The notes beneath the pieces are model-generated. The model saw nothing but the letters and a program-made list of their open reading frames with translations, did not search any database and was not told the origin of the DNA. A stretch of DNA of 64,000 nt, from assembly GCA_022340905.1 (NCBI GenBank), contig JAJDNB010000014.1, forward strand, positions 1,227 to 65,226, given 5' to 3'. This document shows positions 9,897-41,482 of this stretch, piece by piece; the stretch's first letter is position 1; every line of letters begins with the position of its first letter. A program made the translations under genes and the position numbers. The stretch is from Deltaproteobacteria bacterium. Its GTDB lineage: Bacteria; Desulfobacterota; Syntrophobacteria; BM002.

Positions 9897-10571
9897 TTAA
9901 AAACGGAATGACACTCCAGTCAAGAAATAATGTGTGCTCAGAGGAGTCTCCACTTTCACCCTGGTGCGGGGTTCAAACCCAAGAATCCATTCCTCCGTTT
10001 CGTCTTTATACTTAATTTTATAGTGTGTATAGCGATACTCCCCAAACACACCGAAATTTTCGTGGAATTGCCACAAAAGACCCGCCCGAAAGTCCCATCC
10101 ATTTTCGAAACCCCAATCGGAGATTTTCTCCGATACTGTCGGTCTAAAATCTACGTCCATATCATAGTAGATTAGGCTCGGACCAACAGCCAGGTAGGGC
10201 TGAATCTTGCCGTCTGGATAACTATCACTAATCAGTAAAGGGTATCGGAGCATAAGTAAGAATGAAAAGGGAACTATGGAGAAGTCAACTTTTTCGGAAT
10301 CTGCTTGGAAATAGGACACATCACACGCCACGCCCAGATAGGGAAAAAGATATGGATAGTAGCCAAGTCGACCTCCAAAGGTAAATGAGGTATCGTAGCT
10401 TGTTTTGCCTGAAGCGCTTTCGTCAGGAAAGTGACTCTCAACCTCTATCTTTGAACCGTCAGTAATTGCTGCCCCGAGGTAGAGATCCGTGAAGAACTCG
10501 GCTCGTAAAATGGCAGGGAACGCGCACAAGAGAGCGAACACAGTAACTGACAGGAGCAGTTTGTATCTCAC
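9897..10571 (-). CDS. Outer-membrane beta-barrel protein (OmpW/OmpA-like porin family)
   Basis: Has a signal peptide (MRYKLLLSVTVFALLCAFPAILRA). Alternating aromatic/hydrophobic beta-strands run through the protein, and the C-terminus ...GVSFRF ends in Phe, an OMP signature. Confidence 0.6.
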   Translation of the reverse strand: MRYKLLLSVTVFALLCAFPAILRAEFFTDLYLGAAITDGSKIEVESHFPDESASGKTSYDTSFTFGGRLGYYPYLFPYLGVACDVSYFQADSEKVDFSIVPFSFLLMLRYPLLISDSYPDGKIQPYLAVGPSLIYYDMDVDFRPTVSEKISDWGFENGWDFRAGLLWQFHENFGVFGEYRYTHYKIKYKDETEEWILGFEPRTRVKVETPLSTHYFLTGVSFRF

Positions 10572-21788: not shown

Positions 21789-21789
21789 G

Positions 21790-22130
21790 ACACAGATTTA
21801 CACAGATATTTATCTAAACAACAAGCCACAATCTCAGGTCGATTCGTCGATTGGTCAAATCACGCAAGCATAGAGCATAGGGTCAGACGACTGAGGACAG
21901 CAGGGTTACGCGGCGAAAAAGGCGGAGATCGGAGGTCAGAGGTCGGAGGTCAGAGGGCAGAAGACAGAGGACAGACGACAGAAGGTCAAATCGTCAATAT
22001 GTCAAATAGTCAAATGGTTATGAATGACCACGATGACTAATTAACTATTTGCCTAATTTCCCAATTGACCAATCGACCATTTGACTAATTCTCTCATTCC
22101 CTAATTCCCTACCTGCTTGTCGCTTACTGT
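21790..22130. repeat. Mosaic intergenic repeat block including an inverted copy of the roughly 100-bp conserved element
   Basis: Contains catagagcatagggtcagacgac, ggtcagaggtcggaggtcagagggcagaagacagaggacagacgacagaaggtcaaatcgtcaatatgtcaaatagtcaaatggtta-tgaatgaccacgatgac-aatt...gcctaatttcccaattgaccaatcgacc. That last run is the reverse complement of 39471..39570 and 57137..57240. Confidence 0.65.
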
Positions 22131-22140
22131 TTGAGCAGCA

Positions 22141-22464
22141 TCAGAAGCCGAATCCAATATGGATTTGGGTTCCGTAGGGAGAAACAGAAAGCCCAAAGAG
22201 AGAGTAGTGGCCATAGCCGTAATAGTTTGGTCTGTAGTTATATCTATAACGGTAATAGGGGTGCCTCGCATAAGGGTGATTGTAGCCGTAGAATCTGTGG
22301 TTTCTGTAAACCCTTTGGTAGTGACTTCTGTTGGCCTTTTTGTACACACCACTGTGACCGGAGCGATAGTGGCCATCCCGTGCCTTCGCAGGAGACCCCC
22401 AAGCGACCAGAGAGATTGCCAAAAGAGCGGCTATTATAATCTTAGTAATGTTTTTCATTTTCAT
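22141..22464 (-). CDS. Small secreted Tyr/Arg/His/Asn-rich low-complexity protein
   Basis: Has a signal peptide (MKMKNITKIIIAALLAISLVAWGSPAKA). The mature region of about 79 aa carries roughly 17 Tyr plus many Arg, His, Asn, Gly and Pro (HPYYRYRYNYRPNYYGYGHY). The C-terminus ends ...IHIGFGF. Confidence 0.5.
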   Translation of the reverse strand: MKMKNITKIIIAALLAISLVAWGSPAKARDGHYRSGHSGVYKKANRSHYQRVYRNHRFYGYNHPYARHPYYRYRYNYRPNYYGYGHYSLFGLSVSPYGTQIHIGFGF

Positions 22465-22650
22465 CCCCCTTTCATAACTATTAATCGGATGAACAACGAA
22501 AAAGGTTACACCTTGATCAAGAAATTTTACCCAGCTCTAAGCCAGGATATTGCAGCTCGACCTTGAAGGAAAAAGTAGGGATAGAAGTATAATATATGGA
22601 TTTTTGGGAGATGAATGCGGATTTACTATAGTGACGAATAACCGATTTAA

Positions 22651-23073
22651 TTATTTATTTTCAGCCTTCTCAAAATGCCTGAGGGGCCTTGAAAATTTTA
22701 CTGCAACTCCTTCGTTATCCCCAGTGAGTCTGACGATTCGTGCTGAACCTTGAAGGCCAATAGTCTCCTCTTGGCCCGAGAAACTGGGTGGAATAAATAG
22801 GGTTAGGATTATCTGATCGTGGAGTTGGAAGGCATGCAAGTCATTGAGCCTGATAAAAGCTCCACAGGGCCCAATGTTTTCGGTGACTCCGTCGATTGGA
22901 AAATACACCCCCACCTTGCAAAACTTTGCCGAAAAGTGGCGGTTCAATCTCACAGTTTTTCTACGTTCAGCGAATTCCCCTTGAAGCTGGGTACTATCTT
23001 GGGCTGCATCAGGAGCGGCACAATAGCCTTGCTCTTTATCTTTATGGGCCTTAGCTTTCATAATCCATCTCAA
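22651..23073 (-). CDS. PilZ domain protein (putative c-di-GMP receptor)
   Basis: Has an RRKTVRL (RxxxR) motif followed by a D-x-S-x-x-G-like motif (DGVTENIGPCG), typical of PilZ. Length is 140 aa. Confidence 0.6.
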   Translation of the reverse strand: MRWIMKAKAHKDKEQGYCAAPDAAQDSTQLQGEFAERRKTVRLNRHFSAKFCKVGVYFPIDGVTENIGPCGAFIRLNDLHAFQLHDQIILTLFIPPSFSGQEETIGLQGSARIVRLTGDNEGVAVKFSRPLRHFEKAENK

Positions 23074-23395
23074 GAAAAGAATGAAAAAGATTTCAGGTTC
23101 TCTTTACTAAGAATAGTCAAAATGGCTTCAAAAAAGTTCCATCTCGCCAAAGAAAGCTCCCACTTACCCGCCCAGTGAAAGCCGATTGGAGTCATCGCTA
23201 ACATTCAGATGACATCCCTTGCTTCACTATTTGTTCTAAAATTTCAACTCAAAATATAGCTGGTTGGTCTCAGGTGGCCAACTGTTCAAATGATATCATG
23301 CTTAGACTTCTCAGAGAGCAGTGCGGATTCTAATTTGGTGACCCACCTGGACGAAAGGCCCATTCCAACTTCTTCTCTTTTCTTTTGATTCTGTC

Positions 23396-23647
23396 TTACC
23401 GCAACTGAAAGGTGGTTATGCACGTCTTGCTGTCATTGAACGTTTCGATCGTACCCTTCGCACTTCGATTCAATCCTTTGATTTCCAGTTCGATCTTGCG
23501 GTCCCTCGGCAGCCACAGTTCAAAAAAACCATTTCGCATGGTTGAAATTGTCCTATCGACCAAAACATTTCCCTTTTGATCAACAGCTTTTACCTGAAAC
23601 TTCTTCTGGACCAATTCCCCCTGACAGGAGGACATGTAATGAATCAT
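23396..23647 (-). CDS. Hypothetical protein: C-terminal half of the split gene, or a translationally coupled small ORF
   Basis: Starts MIHYMSSCQGE... directly after the upstream TGA, in the same frame, with no Shine-Dalgarno motif. Length is 83 aa. Confidence 0.4.
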   Translation of the reverse strand: MIHYMSSCQGELVQKKFQVKAVDQKGNVLVDRTISTMRNGFFELWLPRDRKIELEIKGLNRSAKGTIETFNDSKTCITTFQLR

Positions 23648-23941
23648 TCAGCGATGCGTTTGATTTATGTAGGGAGCCACCGCCACTACCATTCTGTCTT
23701 TTGGCAGGGGAATCCCTTTGACTCTCTTGTCAGGGAAAATAAATATTACCCCCTGCGGGGTAACGTAGCTCTTGACCTCCTTTCTGGTCCACTTCCATTG
23801 GTTAGCGATTTCCATTGCTTGAACGGCATCAATGTTATCCAGTGAAACATATGCTGATTTTTCATCGCCTTTTACGGCATACGCCGGAAGCGACACGCTC
23901 ATTCCCCAAAAAACAACAAGGAGTATCATCGAATATCTCAT
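23648..23941 (-). CDS. Secreted hypothetical protein: N-terminal half of a gene split by an in-frame TGA
   Basis: Has a signal peptide (MRYSMILLVVFWGMSVSLPAYA). The ORF ends ...NQTHR at a TGA codon at 23648..23650, immediately followed in the same frame by the ATG at 23645..23647. Confidence 0.45.
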   Translation of the reverse strand: MRYSMILLVVFWGMSVSLPAYAVKGDEKSAYVSLDNIDAVQAMEIANQWKWTRKEVKSYVTPQGVIFIFPDKRVKGIPLPKDRMVVAVAPYINQTHR

Positions 23942-25058: not shown

Positions 25059-25901
25059 TCAATTGCTCCCTACTTCGGGACAGTGGCTGATGGCCTCGGC
25101 GACAGCTCGCATGTGTGCTTTTTCGGCCTGGGCAATGGAAAGAAAAGCACTTTTTGCCTCCTCAATCTCAGTCTGTTCAGACATGGTGCGGTAGAGATCA
25201 TAGGCGCAATACTCGATATCCAATGCCATCTCCAACAGAGTGAGGCAAACGTTTTCCTCTATTGTTTCCAGCCGCCGCAAAACATCTTCCAGACGTTCGC
25301 CCCCCTCGAGGACTTCTCCCTTGAGTTCGCTGAACAGGGAATCGAATGGTGGAGGCTGAGGCTCACTCTCCTTCCAGAACCGGTAGATAATCTTGGCGTG
25401 ATCCGTCTCTGCCTGACCCAGATGTTCTATTGTCTTTGCAAACCGTTCTCTGCCAAACTTATCTTGAACACAGGTGTAGAATCGGTAGGCACCTTTTTCC
25501 AGATCCATGGATTTGAAAAGGAGTTCTGCAAGCCCCTTCCCTTTGTCAAAAACCTCCACCTTGGGAAAACCAGGAAGCGCTTTTCCGTCCCAGGCCATAA
25601 TACCGCCGGCCAGGTTGTAGATCTTTTTGCCCGAGACTTCACCTTCGGCGGCCAGGGCAGACGCTGCTCGGGAGCGGTTGCCACTTCGGCAGTAGAAAAT
25701 CATCTCTCTATCTTCGGGCAGTTCAAGCAGCCTGGATTCAAGTCCCATGAGGGGTATGAGATTCGCTCCCGGGATGTGACCAGCAGTGTATTCCTCCGGT
25801 TGGCGAACGTCTATGAGCAAATAGTCGCTCTCCTTCTTCTTTTGCGCGTACTCTTTGAACTGCTCGGGTGAGAGTTCGGCAAACCCCCATTTGTTCTCCA
25901 T
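25059..25901 (-). CDS. Rhodanese-domain protein fused to a C-terminal ferritin-like (rubrerythrin-like) helical domain
   Basis: The N-terminus is a rhodanese fold (LIDVRQPEEYTAGHIPGANLIP...FYCRSGNRS, with a catalytic Cys). The C-terminal 150 aa carry E/H-rich helices (GQAETDHAKI, EMALDIEYCAYDLYRTM, AQAEKAHMRAV). Confidence 0.75.
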   Translation of the reverse strand: MENKWGFAELSPEQFKEYAQKKKESDYLLIDVRQPEEYTAGHIPGANLIPLMGLESRLLELPEDREMIFYCRSGNRSRAASALAAEGEVSGKKIYNLAGGIMAWDGKALPGFPKVEVFDKGKGLAELLFKSMDLEKGAYRFYTCVQDKFGRERFAKTIEHLGQAETDHAKIIYRFWKESEPQPPPFDSLFSELKGEVLEGGERLEDVLRRLETIEENVCLTLLEMALDIEYCAYDLYRTMSEQTEIEEAKSAFLSIAQAEKAHMRAVAEAISHCPEVGSN

Positions 25902-26880: not shown

Positions 26881-27165
26881 CCTTGTGAGCCGCATCGTTC
26901 CACTTTGGGTCTGGTTTTGGCACCTTGGCGGCTAGTCCAGGTTGCCGTGACAGTCATTGAGCCAGTTCTCTCGCGTCACTCTCAATGCTATGTTTGTCGA
27001 CTCCGCTGCGGAGACCTAATAACACCCTCCTACTACAATGAATAGGCCGTTGTTGGCTGACGAGCCTTTCACGTACCATAGATAAGAAGTCCATGTCAAA
27101 TAGCAATTCGGAAAGATCCTCCCAATTCTGCCCGCTGAGTTCCATTCCACAGGGTAATAGGAAAA

Positions 27166-31957: not shown

Positions 31958-34597
31958 TCAGCTCTGACCTGCCTGCAAAAAATGCTGCTGAACAAACTCC
32001 ACCTCCTCTTCTCTGCTCGACAGCTCCCCATTCAGTCGGCCGTCCAGAAGTTGATTGAGGATCCGGCGGTAGACAGGTCCAGGTGTAATGCCCATATCCT
32101 TCAAGTCTTTACCGCGCAGTTTTGGCCGCACTTCTTTCAGATCGCGGAAATAGTGACTTATAGCACGTCGGGTTTCTTCCTGCTGGGATTTCGCCATTAT
32201 GAACAGTAACCACTCCGTACTGACGCTTTCCAATAGGTGGTAAATGTCGCTGGCTTTGAGGTCAGGTTTTCGGTAGAACACTTTGCCGACAGAAATAGCA
32301 TTTTCCCTCCCCTCTCCCAGCAAGCTTGCGAGGCGGGGCGGAAACTCCATCCTAACAATGAAATTTTCAAGCTCTGGGGGGGCCAAAGGATCAAGGAGAG
32401 CCAAAAGGTAAACCAGCCACCTGTCACAACCGTTTTTGATAAAGCTGAGATCGTACCAGGCAAGCACTGAGCCGATCTCTCTCAAAAGCCGCTCGACGGG
32501 AGGCCCGTAATGGATGTCAGGATGGAGAAAAGGCAACAGGTTATATTCATTCATTCTCTTGATCGCAGGAATGGGATCCTCCTCGCTGAGTATATACTTG
32601 AGCTCGTTTGTGAGTCGCCTGCCGCTCAACTCCACAAGCAGTTTCATCTTCACGGCGTTCTCAATCAAATTGGAGGTATGTTTCATAATGCGAAAACCCA
32701 AGCGTTGCTCATAACGGATCGCCCGGAGAACCCGCGTGGGATCCTCCACAAAGCTGTAATTGTGAAGAACCCTGATGGCCTTATCCTTGAAATCCCTCTG
32801 CGCTCCAAAATAATCTATCAGCTGACCGAACCTATCTGGATTCAACTCCACCGCCAGGGTGTTTATAGTGAAATCCCGTCGGTAAAGATCCAGTTTTAGA
32901 GAGCTCAGTTCAACTGTGGGCAAAGCCGCAGGGTATTCGTAATACTCCAGCCGGGCTGTGGCCACATCAATTTTGAAGCCGTCCGGAAAGATCACTACCG
33001 CCGTGCCGAACTTCTTATACGATCTCACCCGGGCATCATAGCTTTGAGCAAAATCCTTGGCAAAGACAATTCCGTCGCCTTCCACCACAATATCAATGTC
33101 CAGGTTGGGACGTCGCAACATGAGGTCGCGGATGAAACCTCCCACTGCGTAAGCTCTGTAATCATGCTTTGCGGCAACCCTTCCAGCTTCCTGCAATATT
33201 TCGTTTATCTGGCGGGGCAACTGTTCTCTCATTACATTAGAGACATTTTTGCGCCGTTTTTTCTCTGTCTGCTGGACCGGTTCGTAGACGTAGGTGGGAA
33301 TACGACTCGGATCGTGTAAAAGCGTGTTGAGCAGATCCTTGCGGGTAATAACTCCAACCACCTTACGATCCTCCACCACGGGAAGCAATCGCTGCTGCAG
33401 ATCCACCAAGTGCTCCTGAATTTCAATCAAAGAAGCATTAGGGGATACGCTAGTGAATTCTGTCCCCATGAACTCACTTACAGCCACGTTCTTGAAACCG
33501 TGATATATGCCTTTGTCTATCATTTGACGGGATAGTATGCCCACCAAGCGTTCCCCGTCCAGCACCGGAGCAGCGTTGATGTTGTAACGCGTTAGCAGGT
33601 CAGCGGCCTCTTGCAAGCTAAGGCTGGGTGATACGGAGATGACCGGGGACGACATCAGGTTTTTCGCCCTTTGCTTAGGATTAATCCAGCTCTGGAGAAT
33701 TCGAAAAAGTTCTTCCTCAACCTGGATCAGGGTGAGGTCTTTTATGGTTGCCGAGGCAGCACTGGAGTGGCCACCTCCGCCAAAGACCGCAGCGATCTCT
33801 CCCACGTTAACTTCAGGCAACCGGCTACGCGCCACCATGTATATACGATCTTCCATTCGGGCAAGGGCAAAGAGAACATTGAGGTTTTCCATGTCCATAA
33901 GCTTATGAACCAGTAGGGCAAAATCGCCGATGTACTTATCCACGGAAGCCCGGGCCATGCAAACGGGGATGGTGTTGATAGTGTGCGATGTGGCCGAGTG
34001 GATCAGATCATTTAGAAGCGAAATTTGCTCTGCTGTCAACTCACGAGTGAGCATATCAGATACCAAATTAAGATTTGCTCCCTGGGTGAGAAGAAAGCGG
34101 GCGGCTTCGTAGTCCTCTGGAGTAGTGGATGAAAAGGTAAATGAACCGGTATCTTCGTAAATACCCAAGGTGAGGATGGTGGCCTCATCGGGGGTGAGCT
34201 GAATGCCACGCTCCCTGATGAGTTCGGTGAGGATGGTAACCGTAGCCCCGACCGGCTTTACCACCTCAATGGATCCAGAGACATCATCTTCAGAATCGGG
34301 GTGATGATCATATATGTGGATGTCGACTTTTTTCTCTTTTACCGCCTTTTCGAATTTACCGATACGTCCCGCCTGTCTGGTATCGACCAGAATGAGACGG
34401 CTAATTTTAGTGAATTCCACATCTCTTATTTTGGCAAAATCAAAAAAGTAGAAAGTGGATTCCACCAAAAACTCTCGGAGGTTGTGTTCCTGCGAGCCTG
34501 GAAACACCATGACTGCCTCTGGATACAGTTTTTTTGCGGCAATCATGGACGCCATGGCGTCGAAGTCGGCATTTATGTGAGTGGTTATGATTTCCAC
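31958..34597 (-). CDS. Multidomain DHH/DHHA1 phosphoesterase - CBS pair - polyA-polymerase/CCA-adding tRNA nucleotidyltransferase fusion
   Basis: The N-terminus has DHH (THINADFDAMASMIAA) and DHHA1 (GGGGHSSAASAT) domains. A central CBS pair follows, then a nucleotidyltransferase head (AYAVGGFIRDLMLRRPNLDIDIVVEGDG) and a C-terminal HD-like region. Length is 879 aa. Confidence 0.8.
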   Translation of the reverse strand: MEIITTHINADFDAMASMIAAKKLYPEAVMVFPGSQEHNLREFLVESTFYFFDFAKIRDVEFTKISRLILVDTRQAGRIGKFEKAVKEKKVDIHIYDHHPDSEDDVSGSIEVVKPVGATVTILTELIRERGIQLTPDEATILTLGIYEDTGSFTFSSTTPEDYEAARFLLTQGANLNLVSDMLTRELTAEQISLLNDLIHSATSHTINTIPVCMARASVDKYIGDFALLVHKLMDMENLNVLFALARMEDRIYMVARSRLPEVNVGEIAAVFGGGGHSSAASATIKDLTLIQVEEELFRILQSWINPKQRAKNLMSSPVISVSPSLSLQEAADLLTRYNINAAPVLDGERLVGILSRQMIDKGIYHGFKNVAVSEFMGTEFTSVSPNASLIEIQEHLVDLQQRLLPVVEDRKVVGVITRKDLLNTLLHDPSRIPTYVYEPVQQTEKKRRKNVSNVMREQLPRQINEILQEAGRVAAKHDYRAYAVGGFIRDLMLRRPNLDIDIVVEGDGIVFAKDFAQSYDARVRSYKKFGTAVVIFPDGFKIDVATARLEYYEYPAALPTVELSSLKLDLYRRDFTINTLAVELNPDRFGQLIDYFGAQRDFKDKAIRVLHNYSFVEDPTRVLRAIRYEQRLGFRIMKHTSNLIENAVKMKLLVELSGRRLTNELKYILSEEDPIPAIKRMNEYNLLPFLHPDIHYGPPVERLLREIGSVLAWYDLSFIKNGCDRWLVYLLALLDPLAPPELENFIVRMEFPPRLASLLGEGRENAISVGKVFYRKPDLKASDIYHLLESVSTEWLLFIMAKSQQEETRRAISHYFRDLKEVRPKLRGKDLKDMGITPGPVYRRILNQLLDGRLNGELSSREEEVEFVQQHFLQAGQS

Positions 34598-39754: not shown

Positions 39755-41482
39755 TTGATGGGTGACTGTTCTTACCTGAAAGATGCGCTCAAATCATACA
39801 CTTACGATCAGGACAAGGTGCGAACCCCGGAGGAAACGGTGGCTCATGTACGACAGAGGTTCGCCAGCGTGGACATGGACATTTTGCAACAGACAATGCG
39901 CATCGACACAGGACGCCTGGACATACCCGTATACATAAGCCTCTGCGGCTCAGATGCTGTGGTTCTCACAGGAACCAAGAAACAGATGGGCAAAGGAGGT
40001 ACGCCAATCCAAGCGGAGGCCAGCGCTTTGATGGAGCTCGCTGAACGTTTCAGCTTCTTTTCCTTTATCAAGAACACGCTCTTCCCCTTGGCCACTTACT
40101 CAGAGTTGGACGGCAACAGCCTGCCAGTAGAAATGCTCTGGCAGTCTCTCCACGACACTGTAACCGATCCGAATTTGGGCGCCGCCGTTATCAGAGGAAT
40201 GCCTTTTCGCTGGACCCGAGCCTGCAACCTAACGCGCAATGAAGAGTTATTGATTCCTATCGATTGGTTTTACACTATCAACGAGTACAACGGACCTGCA
40301 GCAGGCAATGTGCGGGAGGAGGCCATCCTCCAGAGCATCTGCGAGGTAGTCGAGCGGCACGTCTCCTCGGTGATCAGCAACGAACGCATGGTTACTCCCA
40401 GTATCGATCCAGCCAGCGTTCAAGATCCGGCAGCAAGGGAACTCCTCGACAAGTTTGCTGCACAGTCGATTCGCCTTTTCATAAAAGACTTCTCTTTGGA
40501 AACCGGCATTCCCACAGTAGGAACTCTGGCCTGGGACCCCAGAACCTTTCCCGAAAAAAGCGAGATCGTCTTCACAGCTGGCACCACACCCAATGCAGAC
40601 AAATCTCTCGTCCGAGCCCTCACCGAGATAGCTCAGTTGGCAGGAGATTTCGAACTTCGTACCAGTTATCGGCCGACTTTGCCCAAGTACAAGAGTCTCG
40701 AGGAAGCAGAGTACATTACGACCGAGGCTCCCGTAGTGTCCATAAAAAGTCTGCCCGATCTCAGCGACAACAACTTCAAGACCGAAATTGAACGATGTGT
40801 ATCCACCCTTTCTCATTTAGGCATGGAGGTCTTGGTCGTTGACGTGACCCACCCGCAGCTGGGTATCCCGGCCGTCTACACCATTATACCGGGAGCTCAT
40901 TTTAGAGATCGCACCAGGGACAGCAACGTAATCTTCCATGCGGCCAAGATTATCAGTCAGTCTGTGGAAGGGGGTCGCGCTGTTGGCGCGATCCAAAGGT
41001 TGATTGATGGTTTTCCCGGACGTTACGATCTCCATTTTTTTCTGGGCTTGGTTTTGGAATACCAAGGCGAAGCGGGTGAAGCTCTGGGGGAGTTTCAAAG
41101 GGCTCTGGACTTAAATCCCGGTCCCCTCGATATTGCCAGCGTCCACACGCACATAGGGGTCTGTCTGAAGGATCTAGAGGACTACAAGGGAGCCATCGGA
41201 GCTCTCGAACAAGCGAGGGAGTTTGATCCTAATCTCAAGGAAATCTACAATGTTCTGGGCTTTTGCTATTTCAAGCTCAAGGAGCATGAGCAATCTATCC
41301 AGCAGTTCGAAAAAGCCATAGAGATTGATCCCGGCTCTGCCATTGACTACGCCAACATCGGTTCGAATCTGAGGGAGATGGGTCACAAAAAAGAAGCAAT
41401 CCGCCTTTATCGGATAGCCCTCGAGATTGATCCCACCATTGATTTTGCCAGGGAAAGTTTGGCCAAGTTGGAGGGGAAGTGA
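39755..41482 (+). CDS. ycaO: YcaO-domain protein with C-terminal TPR repeats (E. coli YcaO-type, non-TOMM)
   Basis: YcaO ATP-binding signature (TGTKKQMGKGGTPIQAEASALMELAERFS) and a roughly 170-aa C-terminal TPR region. The 575-aa length and architecture match E. coli YcaO, which is linked to RimO-dependent S12 methylthiolation. Confidence 0.8.
   Translation: MMGDCSYLKDALKSYTYDQDKVRTPEETVAHVRQRFASVDMDILQQTMRIDTGRLDIPVYISLCGSDAVVLTGTKKQMGKGGTPIQAEASALMELAERFSFFSFIKNTLFPLATYSELDGNSLPVEMLWQSLHDTVTDPNLGAAVIRGMPFRWTRACNLTRNEELLIPIDWFYTINEYNGPAAGNVREEAILQSICEVVERHVSSVISNERMVTPSIDPASVQDPAARELLDKFAAQSIRLFIKDFSLETGIPTVGTLAWDPRTFPEKSEIVFTAGTTPNADKSLVRALTEIAQLAGDFELRTSYRPTLPKYKSLEEAEYITTEAPVVSIKSLPDLSDNNFKTEIERCVSTLSHLGMEVLVVDVTHPQLGIPAVYTIIPGAHFRDRTRDSNVIFHAAKIISQSVEGGRAVGAIQRLIDGFPGRYDLHFFLGLVLEYQGEAGEALGEFQRALDLNPGPLDIASVHTHIGVCLKDLEDYKGAIGALEQAREFDPNLKEIYNVLGFCYFKLKEHEQSIQQFEKAIEIDPGSAIDYANIGSNLREMGHKKEAIRLYRIALEIDPTIDFARESLAKLEGK

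What the first reader, a model, noticed from the sequence alone, without database searches (positions are those of the whole stretch)
22141..22464. Small secreted protein made almost entirely of Tyr, Arg, His, Asn, Gly and Pro
After a clean signal peptide, the mature 79 residues contain about 17 Tyr in YxYxY / YGY / HPYY patterns. They have no hydrophobic core, and the protein ends in a short beta-like GLSVSPYGTQIHIGFGF tail. Such aromatic and basic low-complexity secreted peptides are reminiscent of adhesive, mineral-binding or phase-separating proteins and are rarely annotated. It sits next to a PilZ c-di-GMP receptor gene.
Basis: seen in the sequence. Interest (0 to 1): 0.55.

Follow-up and report, generated by a model that had tools for sequence, protein, structure and literature searches.

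The report
Secreted basic tyrosine-rich envelope protein
This is a real but uncharacterised gene for a small exported protein that is strongly positively charged, has no stable fold and ends in a short tail like those of outer-membrane proteins; it belongs to a rare family known only from uncultured sediment bacteria, and its function is still a guess.

Summary
The ORF is real. On the minus strand (22464/22458..22141) it encodes 107/105 aa. It has a classical Sec signal peptide and a 79-aa mature part with 17 Tyr, 10 Arg, 10 Gly, 8 His, 12 K+R and 1 D+E. The annotated frame is under purifying selection (dN/dS 0.30-0.64). The overlapping antisense and +1 ORFs are not (about 0.8-2.4). An 11-codon in-frame repeat indel and a strong Shine-Dalgarno also support it. 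About 30 relatives exist, all in metagenomes. No Pfam, NCBIfam, PDB, PADLOC or GTDB-genome match was found. Three things are conserved across the family: the signal peptide, a polycationic His/Arg-rich composition with almost no acidic residues, and a C-terminal amphipathic beta-hairpin ending in Phe that resembles an OMP beta-signal. High Tyr is specific to this subfamily, and the YxY patterns do not exceed what composition predicts. AlphaFold models the mature part as disordered. All family loci carry a conserved upstream TGTAAC-CTTT...CGA(T/C)/CGTC block typical of ECF-sigma promoters. PilZ genes lie nearby in only two of about seven contexts. Best guess: an ECF-controlled, exported polycationic disordered protein tethered at the outer membrane by its tail. 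Moderate interest. In passing, the neighbouring CueP gene appears to encode selenocysteine.

The parts
22141..22458 (-). Coding sequence of the exported polycationic Tyr/Arg/His-rich protein. It is 105 aa from the second ATG, with stop TGA at 22143..22141. The ORF as listed starts two codons earlier, at 22464.
   Evidence: dN/dS is 0.30-0.64 in this frame against about 0.8-2.4 in the overlapping antisense and +1 ORF frames. Homologs. L002 has ATC at the first ATG.
22381..22458 (-). Signal peptide MKNITKIIIAALLAISLVAWGSPAKA. The n-region has 2 Lys, the h-region is 14 residues, and the c-region has Pro at -4 and A-x-A at -3/-1.
   Evidence: Read directly from the sequence. AlphaFold models helix 2-20 at pLDDT about 80. 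This is the most conserved block of the family (A3, A5). About 80% nucleotide identity holds even between the most distant members.
22204..22380 (-). Mature polycationic low-complexity region, residues 27-85 (RDGHYRSG...NYYGYGHY). It includes the 11-residue unit YRYxYxY[RK]PNx, which is duplicated in L001 and L004.
   Evidence: Composition. pLDDT is about 40 with no secondary structure. 33-nt in-frame indel.
22144..22203 (-). Conserved C-terminal module SLFGLSVSPYGTQIHIGFGF. It is predicted as a beta-hairpin whose last strand alternates hydrophobic and polar residues and ends in Phe, like an OMP beta-signal.
   Evidence: Family consensus: S-x-[FLI]-G-[LI]-x-x-S-x-x-G-T-x-[ILV]-[HRQ]-[IV]-x-[FLVI]-[GR]-F. 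AlphaFold strands 87-92 and 99-104 at low confidence. It is the only one of 373 window ORF segments of 60 aa or more with this C-terminal pattern.
22465..22472 (-). Shine-Dalgarno sequence AAAGGGGG (AAAGGAGG in relatives), 6 nt upstream of the second ATG.
   Evidence: The ATGAAAGG block is invariant and the next three positions are A/G, G, G/A across the nine lineages.
22484..22510 (-). Candidate alternative-sigma (ECF-type) promoter. It has -35 TGTAAC (22510..22505), a C+T-tract (22504..22499), and -10 CGAT (22487..22484), 17 nt after the -35 hexamer and 25 nt before the start codon.
   Evidence: The -35 block TGTAA[C/A]CTTT is invariant in 9 lineages, the spacer varies, and the -10 is CGAT/CGAC/CGTC in 8 of 9. 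Consensus is from PMC5758882. This is an inference; no transcript data were available.
22651..23073 (-). Upstream neighbour on the same strand: a single-domain PilZ protein. RxxxR is present as RKTVR. The D/NxSxxG motif is degenerate, NIGPCG.
   Evidence: PF07238, E = 2.5e-4, just below the cutoff. Homologous PilZ genes lie within about 1.5 kb of the family gene in L046-48, at 34-40% identity.
21789..22140 (.). Intergenic region between the 3' ends of this gene and the convergent AraC/DJ-1 regulator gene. It holds 7-8 nt microsatellite arrays that form an imperfect 38-nt inverted repeat, possibly a bidirectional terminator.
   Evidence: No canonical intrinsic terminator was found for this gene.

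Best explanation
The ORF is a genuine, independently transcribed gene. Its product is exported by the Sec pathway and the signal peptide is cleaved after A-K-A. The 79-residue mature protein has two parts. The first is a disordered tail of about 59 residues rich in Arg, His and Tyr, with net charge about +11 before counting His. The second is a conserved 20-residue C-terminal beta-hairpin whose last strand (I-x-I-x-F-x-F-COOH) imitates the C-terminal strand of outer-membrane beta-barrel proteins. My proposed mechanism is as follows. The gene is switched on by an ECF-type alternative sigma factor, as part of an envelope response. The hairpin docks the protein at the inner face of the outer membrane, either by pairing with an exposed strand of a barrel protein or of BamA/BamD, or by shallow insertion. 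The polycationic Tyr/His tail then binds anionic envelope material (phospholipid or LPS phosphates, acidic glycans, possibly metal ions through His) and so buffers or stiffens the envelope. Shown: the gene is real, and the signal-peptide features, composition, predicted disorder, conserved C-terminal motif and conserved upstream block are all present. Inferred: export itself, which sigma factor acts, outer-membrane docking, and the ligand.
For: Real gene. dN/dS is 0.30-0.64 in the annotated frame against about 0.8-2.4 for the overlapping antisense 135-aa ORF and the +1 ORF. For the mature part alone it is 0.25-0.43, with dS similar to neighbouring genes. The 33-nt indel is in frame. The search of 1.84 billion cluster representatives gave 14 proteins at E <= 1e-3; the two profile searches of the 5.8-billion-protein database gave 26 and 29. 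Export. The n/h/c signal peptide has A-x-A and is the most conserved block of the family. AlphaFold gives helix 2-20. The same N-terminal cassette is fused in relatives to a 17-kDa outer-membrane surface-antigen domain (P0016, PF16998, E = 9e-11). Disorder and polycation. pLDDT is about 40 over residues 22-93. Family-wide, K+R is 10-27, His 5-26 and D+E 0-3 in nearly all members that keep the C-terminal tail. OMP-like tail. Hydrophobic residues at -1, -3, -5 and -7 with terminal Phe are conserved in nearly all members. The pattern is unique among 373 window ORF segments. The genuine OMP_b-brl protein of the same window ends ...GVSFRF. Free beta-signal peptides bind BAM components (PMC10945584). 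Own promoter. A terminator-like hairpin in L001, L002 and L044 separates the gene from its upstream neighbour. TGTAA[C/A]CTTT, a variable spacer, then CGAT/CGAC/CGTC is conserved at a fixed distance in 9 lineages. That motif occurs almost only at family genes: 15 of 16 hits in 491 kb of loci. This matches the ECF hallmarks of AAC at -35, a proximal T-tract and CGT/CGAC at -10 (PMC5758882). Genomic context varies, as expected for a stand-alone unit.
Against: There are no expression or localisation data. The promoter assignment rests on conserved blocks in homologous sequence. A single match to the motif is expected about 1.4 times per window by chance. A sigma-28-type reading (TAAAGTTT-N11-GCCGATAA, recalled from memory) fits the window lineage about as well. 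No ECF sigma gene was seen in the window, although the RpoE tblastn used was a weak test. The beta-signal consensus zeta-x-G-x-x-[aromatic/hydrophobic]-x-[aromatic/hydrophobic] is only partly met: the Gly position is His. The hairpin prediction has low confidence (pLDDT about 46-50). Arg at or near +1 and a +11 chain are unfavourable for Sec export (established knowledge). No ligand is indicated by any conserved neighbour.
Confidence: 0.35

Rival explanations
1. It is a periplasmic metal buffer or metallochaperone-like 'sponge'. In this reading the many His (and Tyr) side chains of a disordered exported protein bind Cu, Ni, Zn or Co ions, as SilE/PcoE-type proteins do. The gene would then be part of a metal or oxidative stress island.
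For: His makes up 10% of the mature part here and reaches about 20-25% in relatives. The window lineage places the gene beside a periplasmic copper chaperone CueP homolog, with OsmC peroxiredoxin-like and rhodanese-rubrerythrin genes nearby. OsmC is again adjacent in the distant locus L052. The protein is predicted to be disordered.
Against: CueP is not linked in L004/L044, L046-48, L049-51, L053 or L055. No Met or Cys and no fixed His motif of a known metal site is present. The mature N-terminus has His at position 4, not position 3, so it is not an ATCUN motif. The conserved blocks are the signal peptide and the C-terminal hairpin, not a His cluster. This reading is compatible with the best explanation rather than exclusive of it.
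Confidence: 0.2
2. It is a matrix or adhesive component under c-di-GMP control. Once exported, the Tyr/Arg-rich polycation would cross-link acidic exopolysaccharide or extracellular DNA, or coacervate, in biofilms. The adjacent PilZ receptor would couple it to c-di-GMP.
For: A PilZ gene lies immediately upstream on the same strand in the window and in L004 and L042-44. Homologous PilZ genes (34-40% identity) flank the 54%-identical family member in L046-48, which sits among four or five PilZ genes. The Tyr+Arg composition is the classic 'sticker' composition of phase-separating proteins (general knowledge).
Against: The close relatives L001 and L002 have replaced PilZ with unrelated 246-aa and 85-aa genes and kept the family gene. 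Four other contexts have no PilZ. The gene has its own conserved promoter. No route across the outer membrane is evident. Tyr is not conserved across the family. The window PilZ has a degenerate D/NxSxxG motif (NIGPCG) and scores below the Pfam cutoff.
Confidence: 0.12
3. It is a natural beta-signal mimic that acts on the outer-membrane protein assembly or stress-sensing machinery. Its C-terminal strand would occupy BamA/BamD or the PDZ domain of a DegS-like protease, either to tune OMP assembly or to amplify the ECF envelope-stress signal.
For: The conserved terminal Phi-x-Phi-x-Phi-x-F-COOH is the best-conserved mature segment. Peptides carrying beta-signals bind BamA/BamD and inhibit assembly (PMC10945584). 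The upstream block is ECF-like.
Against: This is purely by analogy. The Gly of the consensus is missing. A 59-residue polycationic tail is unexplained by this role alone. Some members end in H, Y or R (P0029, P0030, P0017).
Confidence: 0.12
4. It is a Sec-dependent cationic antimicrobial peptide or bacteriocin-like toxin, with a conserved leader and promoter cassette and a rapidly diverging cationic mature peptide.
For: The promoter, 5'UTR and signal-peptide region keep about 80% nucleotide identity between members whose mature parts are only 35-55% identical. The composition is strongly cationic and His-rich, reminiscent of histatins (from memory).
Against: No immunity, transporter or processing genes occur in any context. 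The mature part is under purifying, not diversifying, selection (dN/dS 0.25-0.43). A Sec substrate in a diderm ends up in the periplasm. There are no PADLOC hits, and the only PHROGs matches are weak, confined to the signal-peptide half and of unknown function.
Confidence: 0.06
5. It is a spurious ORF created by low-complexity DNA, or the real gene is the overlapping antisense ORF (22159..22566, +, 135 aa).
For: Both strands are open here. The antisense ORF is also open in L004 (146 aa) and partly in L002.
Against: The antisense frame has dN/dS of 0.84-2.44, and the +1 frame 0.95-1.43. The annotated frame has a Shine-Dalgarno, a signal peptide, an in-frame indel, and homologs conserved to 31-38% identity with the same N- and C-terminal blocks.
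Confidence: 0.02

Closest known systems
C-terminal beta-signal of outer-membrane beta-barrel proteins (recognised by BamA/BamD)
   Same: The last strand alternates hydrophobic and polar residues and ends in Phe (QIHIGFGF here; IHIRLGF, LHIGVRF and FDFGFRF in relatives). It is comparable to the genuine OMP of this window (...LTGVSFRF) and to the L005 OMP (...KIGYSF).
   Different: The mature protein is only 79 residues, of which at most about 20 are predicted as strand, so it is too short to form a barrel on its own. The consensus Gly at position -6 is His. There is no OMP_b-brl or other barrel Pfam hit.
Periplasmic disordered metal-binding proteins SilE/PcoE
   Same: These are small, Sec-exported, intrinsically disordered and His-rich. 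In some lineages this gene is also found near copper-handling genes.
   Different: There is no sequence similarity. This protein has no Met and no MxxH/HxxM motifs. It is strongly cationic rather than near-neutral, and its conserved parts are not His clusters.
Histatins and other His/Arg/Tyr-rich cationic peptides
   Same: The composition is similar (His, Arg, Lys, Tyr, Gly, with almost no acidic or aliphatic residues), and both are secreted and disordered.
   Different: Histatins are eukaryotic salivary peptides of 24-38 residues with an N-terminal ATCUN site. They are not homologous. This protein has a C-terminal hairpin and is bacterial. The comparison is recalled from memory and was not tested.
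Sulfur globule proteins SgpA-C, and Tyr-rich structural proteins such as Bacillus spore-coat CotC/CotG and squid-beak His-rich proteins
   Same: They are small, rich in Tyr/Gly (or His), of low complexity and lack a hydrophobic core. The Sgp proteins are also signal-peptide exported.
   Different: No homology was detectable (no database hits). Sgp proteins are not polycationic. Coat proteins are not exported. Tyr is not conserved across this family. The comparison is from memory.
Relatives sharing the same N-terminal cassette but with other C-terminal modules (P0016; P0033-P0041)
   Same: They share the signal peptide MKNI.KIMIAALLA..LVAWASPSEA and the following basic GH.R..GH region.
   Different: Their C-termini are a 17-kDa surface-antigen domain (PF16998) or a Cys-containing YWYYC..GYYPYV..CP.GW module, instead of the beta-hairpin. 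These proteins are equally uncharacterised.

Membership tests
Sec (SPase I) signal-peptide-bearing exported proteins | A positively charged n-region, a 7-15 residue hydrophobic h-region, and a polar c-region with small residues at -3 and -1 | tested here: met
   MKNITK / IIIAALLAISLVAW / GSPAKA|R, read from the sequence. The arrangement is conserved in all relatives. AlphaFold gives helix 2-20. No dedicated predictor such as SignalP was available.
Sec (SPase I) signal-peptide-bearing exported proteins | Actual cleavage and periplasmic or outer location | not testable with these tools
   This needs N-terminal sequencing, proteomics or a fusion reporter.
Outer-membrane beta-barrel proteins (BAM substrates) | C-terminal beta-signal zeta-x-G-x-x-[aromatic/hydrophobic]-x-[aromatic/hydrophobic], as quoted from PMC10945584 | tested here: inconclusive
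   For the last eight residues QIHIGFGF, positions 1, 6 and 8 are met and the Gly at position 3 is His. The result is the same across the family.
Outer-membrane beta-barrel proteins (BAM substrates) | Enough amphipathic strands (8 or more) to close a barrel, or a match to a barrel family model | tested here: not met
   The mature part is 79 aa. AlphaFold shows only two short strands and the rest is disordered. There is no Pfam or NCBIfam barrel hit. There is no similarity to the OMP at the equivalent position in L005.
ECF-sigma-dependent genes | A promoter with an AAC-containing -35, a proximal T-tract and a CGT/CGA-type -10 at 16-18 nt spacing (PMC5758882) | tested here: met
   TGTAAC-CTTTTT-N11-CGAT lies at 22510..22484. 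The -35 block is invariant in 9 lineages and the -10 is CGAT/CGAC/CGTC in 8 of 9. Caveat: this is a sequence match only, and a sigma-28-like reading is not excluded.
ECF-sigma-dependent genes | Transcription that depends on a specific ECF sigma factor | not testable with these tools
   No transcript data were available. No sigma or anti-sigma pair was found in the window or in related loci (a weak test).
PilZ / c-di-GMP-linked gene pair | Conserved adjacency of the family gene to a PilZ gene | tested here: not met
   Adjacency is present in the window, L004, L042-44 and L046-48. It is absent in L001, L002, L049-51, L052, L053 and L055.
Known protein families (Pfam, NCBIfam, PDB, PADLOC, PHROGs) | A significant profile match | tested here: not met
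   There were no hits in Pfam or NCBIfam for the window protein, or in PDB with the family profile at E <= 10, or in PADLOC. PHROGs hits are weak, cover only the signal-peptide half and have unknown function.
ATCUN (N-terminal X-X-His) Cu/Ni site | His at position 3 of the mature N-terminus | tested here: not met
   The predicted mature N-terminus is R-D-G-H (family consensus R/W-x-G-H), which puts His at position 4. This depends on the assumed cleavage site.

The most novel reading that the evidence does not exclude
The family is a previously unrecognised class of envelope proteins: an ECF-induced, exported polycationic disordered chain carrying a free-standing OMP beta-signal. This would be an endogenous 'beta-signal decoy or tether' that docks on BAM or on barrel edges to modulate outer-membrane assembly or stress signalling. 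It would be a natural protein counterpart of beta-signal peptide inhibitors and of darobactin-like strand mimics.
Probability: 0.1. Interest if true: 0.7.

Novelty: new variant of a known kind. Interest (0 to 1): 0.35.

Why it matters
Small exported low-complexity proteins are routinely lost or left as 'hypothetical' in annotation. Here one is shown to be a selected, conserved family of about 30 clusters among billions of metagenomic proteins, so far seen only in uncultured, apparently Desulfobacterales-like sediment bacteria. It has a modular build: a conserved promoter, leader and signal-peptide cassette, a polycationic disordered spacer, and exchangeable C-terminal modules. If the C-terminal strand really engages the outer-membrane assembly machinery or barrel edges, the family would be a natural example of beta-signal mimicry. 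It would also give a handle on envelope-stress physiology in sulfate-reducing sediment bacteria. If the protein is instead a metal or polyanion binder, its unusual Tyr/Arg/His chemistry could interest materials and coacervate research. At present the value is mainly as a well-delimited candidate for experiment.

Tried and rejected
(1) Pfam, NCBIfam, PADLOC, PHROGs and PDB searches with the protein, with relatives and with the family profile gave nothing meaningful. (2) Pattern scans of GTDB genomes, JGI metagenome contigs and IMG/VR with the family alignment, plus one promoter-pattern scan, found no relatives. The relatives came only from the protein databases. (3) I tested whether the gene descends from the OMP at the equivalent position next to the AraC regulator in the closest MAG (L005). 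BLASTP shows no similarity, so this was rejected. (4) The antisense 135-aa ORF and the +1 91-aa ORF as the real gene were rejected on dN/dS. (5) YxY periodicity as a designed amphipathic Tyr ladder is not above composition. (6) A second copy in the window or in the loci was not found. (7) A sigma-70 promoter was not found by consensus scan, and neither was a canonical intrinsic terminator. A sigma-54 reading was rejected by eye because there is no GG/GC motif. A sigma-28 reading fits the window lineage (6/8 + 6/8 at N11 spacing, consensus from memory) but fails at the -10 of L049 and L052, so the ECF reading is preferred without excluding sigma-28. (8) An ECF sigma gene in the window was not detected by tblastn with E. 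coli RpoE, which is a weak test. (9) Rfam found nothing at the locus. (10) No fold search was run, because the model is too low in confidence (pLDDT 49.7) to give meaningful matches. (11) Literature searches for a described family of this kind returned nothing relevant.
Full report
OBSERVATION. The minus strand carries an ORF at 22464..22141 (107 aa). In relative L002 the first ATG is ATC, and a strong Shine-Dalgarno (AAAGGGGG; AAAGGAGG in relatives) lies 6 nt before the second ATG. The likely start is therefore 22458, giving 105 aa. The N-terminus MKNITK-IIIAALLAISLVAW-GSPAKA|R has the n/h/c layout of a Sec signal peptide, with A-x-A at -3/-1. The predicted mature part is 79 aa: Y17, R10, G10, H8, S6, N5, P4, F4, with K+R 12 and D+E 1. 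Two points need adjusting. 'Almost entirely' corresponds to 68% Y/R/H/N/G/P. The YxY, YY and YxYxY motifs are no more frequent than in shuffles of the same composition (P = 0.22, 0.92, 0.15).

IS IT A GENE? Yes, on five lines of evidence.
- Against the three diverged syntenic relatives (L001, L002, L004; 72-78% aa identity), the annotated frame has dN/dS of 0.30-0.64. The frame of the overlapping antisense 135-aa ORF (22159..22566) gives 0.84-2.44, and the +1 frame gives 0.95-1.43. The only other low-omega frame is the antisense frame that shares wobble positions, a known artefact.
- The mature part alone has dN/dS of 0.25-0.43. Its dS (0.19-0.32) is like that of the neighbouring AraC, DLH and CueP genes, whose omega is 0.16-0.37.
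- L001 and L004 carry a 33-nt in-frame insertion that duplicates an 11-residue unit, YRYGYKYKPNx.
- An exhaustive HMMER search of 1.84 billion cluster representatives found 14 relatives at E <= 1e-3. Two profile searches of the 5.8-billion-protein collection found 26 and 29. All came from metagenomes or MAG-type sources, and all are unnamed or 'hypothetical'.
- One relative (L044/P0006) has a 1-nt deletion inside the repeat and reads into the +1 frame. This is a pseudogene or an assembly error.

WHAT IS CONSERVED. Alignments A3 and A5 show three conserved blocks.
- The signal peptide, consensus MKNIGKIMIAALLAMxLVAWASPSEA.
- The first mature residues, R/W-x-G-H-x-R-S-G.
- The C-terminal 20 residues, S-x-[FLI]-G-[LI]-x-x-S-x-x-G-T-x-[ILV]-[HRQ]-[IV]-x-[FLVI]-[GR]-F-COOH.
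The middle is conserved only in composition. K+R is 10-27, His 5-26 and D+E 0-3 in nearly all members that keep the C-terminal tail. Tyr is 17-18 in the window subfamily but only 3-6 in the P0014/P0025-P0030 subfamily. The family trait is thus a polycationic His/Arg-rich chain, and Tyr richness is a local variation.

AlphaFold2 with the 22-sequence alignment gives mean pLDDT 49.7. The signal-peptide helix scores about 80, residues 22-93 score about 40 with no secondary structure, and there is a weak C-terminal hairpin (strands 87-92 and 99-104). No Pfam, NCBIfam, PADLOC or PDB match exists, and PHROGs gives only weak matches over the signal-peptide half.

THE C-TERMINAL TAIL. The last strand has hydrophobic residues at -1, -3, -5 and -7 and ends in Phe. 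Among 373 stop-to-stop segments of 60 aa or more in all six frames of the window, only this ORF has that pattern. The bona fide OMP_b-brl protein of the window (9897..10571) ends ...LTGVSFRF. The published beta-signal consensus is zeta-x-G-x-x-[aromatic/hydrophobic]-x-[aromatic/hydrophobic], and free peptides carrying it bind BamA/BamD (PMC10945584). Here positions 1, 6 and 8 fit, but the Gly is replaced by His. The tail therefore works like, or at least looks like, an OMP C-terminus. The protein cannot itself be a barrel: it is 79 aa with at most two short strands. The idea that it descends from the OMP at the equivalent place in the closest MAG (L005) was tested and rejected.

TRANSCRIPTION UNIT. 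In L001, L002 and L044, a terminator-like hairpin followed by a T-run ends the upstream gene. About 60 conserved nucleotides then lead to the start codon. Across nine independent lineages the block TGTAA[C/A]CTTT is invariant. A 13-14-nt variable stretch follows, then CGAT/CGAC/CGTC in eight of nine lineages (CAAT in L053), then about 25 nt including the Shine-Dalgarno. In 491 kb of fetched loci the motif occurs 16 times, 15 of them in front of family genes. These are the hallmarks reported for ECF-sigma promoters: AAC in the -35, a -35-proximal T-tract, and CGT/CGAC in the -10 (PMC5758882).

There are caveats. A single match is expected by chance about 1.4 times per window, so the weight lies in the conservation pattern. 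The sigma-28 consensus (TAAAGTTT-N11-GCCGATAA, from memory) fits the window lineage 6/8 + 6/8 but fails at the -10 of L049 and L052. No sigma-70 promoter or canonical terminator was detected.

The promoter-to-signal-peptide cassette is also conserved at nucleotide level. Identity is about 80%, and about 70% at third codon positions, between members whose mature parts share only 35-55% of residues. Synonymous changes in the signal-peptide codons are nearly absent among the close relatives, though the counts are small.

CONTEXT. The window is syntenic with L001 and L002 from about 28380 to 20760. The gene order is TPR protein, SAM riboswitch region, rhodanese-rubrerythrin, dienelactone hydrolase, CueP, a variable segment, this gene, and then a convergent AraC/DJ-1 regulator and OsmC.

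The variable segment differs between lineages. It is a PilZ gene in the window, L004 and L042-44. It is unrelated 246-aa and 85-aa genes in L001 and L002. The 54%-identical member P0020 (L046-48) lies among four or five PilZ-domain genes, two of them 34-40% identical to the window PilZ. Four further contexts (L049-51, L052, L053, L055) have no PilZ. OsmC recurs in L052, and a transposase is adjacent in L055. PilZ linkage is therefore real in two lineages, possibly by common descent, but it does not define the family.

The closest genome-level relatives of the flanking AraC/OsmC pair are Desulfobacteraceae/Desulfobacterales MAGs (87-76% identity). They lack the family gene at that place.

MODULARITY. 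The same signal peptide and basic N-terminal stretch are fused in other proteins to different C-terminal modules. These include a 17-kDa outer-membrane surface-antigen domain (P0016, PF16998), a Cys-containing YWYYC..GYYPYV..CP.GW module (P0033-P0041), and a Trp-rich module (P0031). This supports an envelope location and a 'cassette plus exchangeable anchor' architecture.

MECHANISM. My best-supported reading (confidence about 0.35) is an ECF-controlled, Sec-exported, intrinsically disordered polycation. Its OMP-like C-terminal hairpin tethers it at the outer membrane, and its Arg/His/Tyr chain binds anionic envelope components and possibly metal ions. Shown: gene reality, the signal-peptide features, composition, predicted disorder, the conserved tail and the conserved upstream block. 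Inferred: export, sigma dependence, docking and ligand. The rivals are:
- a periplasmic His-based metal sponge (0.2; CueP and OsmC are neighbours in some lineages only);
- a c-di-GMP-linked matrix or adhesive protein (0.12);
- a beta-signal decoy acting on BAM or a DegS-like sensor (0.12);
- a cationic antimicrobial peptide (0.06);
- a spurious ORF (0.02, effectively refuted).

NOVELTY AND SCORE. The family is undescribed and has no homology to any curated family or solved structure. The kind of object is familiar, though: a small exported low-complexity basic protein. I rate it a new variant of a known kind, with interest 0.35. The most novel reading not excluded is a natural free-standing beta-signal tether or decoy under ECF control (probability about 0.1, interest 0.7 if true).

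SIDE FINDING. The CueP-family gene at 23941..23396 (-) is interrupted by an in-frame TGA (23650..23648). That codon aligns exactly with a Cys of Salmonella CueP (4GQZ: RTHPC-FNHSLSGCQGE against QTHR-TGA-MIHYMSSCQGE; E = 3e-22). The TGA is conserved in L002 and, by its split gene calls, apparently in L001. A small hairpin follows it (energy not significant). This looks like a selenocysteine-containing CueP. A full-text search found no paper linking CueP and selenocysteine.

Noticed in passing
window 23396-23941 (-), TGA at 23648-23650; L002 3660-4235: The CueP-family periplasmic copper-chaperone gene is split by an in-frame TGA. That codon aligns exactly with a conserved Cys of Salmonella CueP (PDB 4GQZ, E = 3e-22), and the two other Cys are conserved. 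The TGA is kept in L002 and apparently in L001, and a small hairpin (CCUCCUGUCAGGGGG) starts about 20 nt downstream. This is likely a selenocysteine-containing CueP. No paper in the library links CueP and selenocysteine.
   Followed up: partly
window 21789-22140: The intergenic region between the two convergent genes consists of short tandem arrays: GAGGTCA x8 at 21932-21988, GTCAAATA x4 at 21985-22015, and CCAATTGA/CTAATTCC x3-4 at 22061-22111. Together they form an imperfect 38-nt inverted repeat. Relatives L001 and L004 have a different AATTAG-type 8-nt array at the same place. Its function is unknown; it may be a terminator or a recombination hot spot.
   Followed up: partly
window 22465-23395 vs L001 5110-6560 / L002 4290-5740: The segment between CueP and the family gene varies between otherwise syntenic close relatives. 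It is a PilZ gene in the window, L004 and L042-44. In L001 and L002 it is an unrelated 246-aa protein plus an 85-aa membrane protein, neither with a Pfam hit.
   Followed up: partly
window 22381-22540 (-) and the same region of L046, L049, L052, L053, L055: The promoter, 5'UTR and signal-peptide cassette is conserved at nucleotide level (about 80% identity, about 70% at third codon positions) between members whose mature parts are only 35-55% identical. Synonymous changes in the signal-peptide codons are almost absent among close relatives. The invariant ATGAAAGG(A/G)G block also opens a 4-6-codon mini-ORF (MKGG*) that ends at or overlaps the main start. The significance is unknown.
   Followed up: partly
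proteins P0016, P0031, P0033-P0041 (no window coordinates): The family's signal peptide and basic N-terminal stretch are fused in other metagenomic proteins to different C-terminal modules. These are a 17-kDa outer-membrane surface-antigen domain, a Cys-containing YWYYC..GYYPYV..CP.GW module with no Pfam model, and a Trp-rich module.
   Followed up: partly
L044 1016-1381: Relative P0006 has a 1-nt deletion inside the 11-codon repeat and reads into the +1 frame for its last about 40 residues. It is a pseudogene, a slippage variant or an assembly error.
   Followed up: no
window 26889-26991 (-): A SAM riboswitch (RF00162, 45.2 bits, just above the gathering score) is the only Rfam match in the window.
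   Followed up: no
window 39755-41482 (+); 31958-34597 (-); 25059-25901 (-): Three unusual domain fusions were seen while surveying the window: YcaO fused to TPR repeats; DHH-DHHA1-CBS fused to a poly(A) polymerase/CCA-adding head domain; and rhodanese fused to a rubrerythrin-like domain.
   Followed up: no
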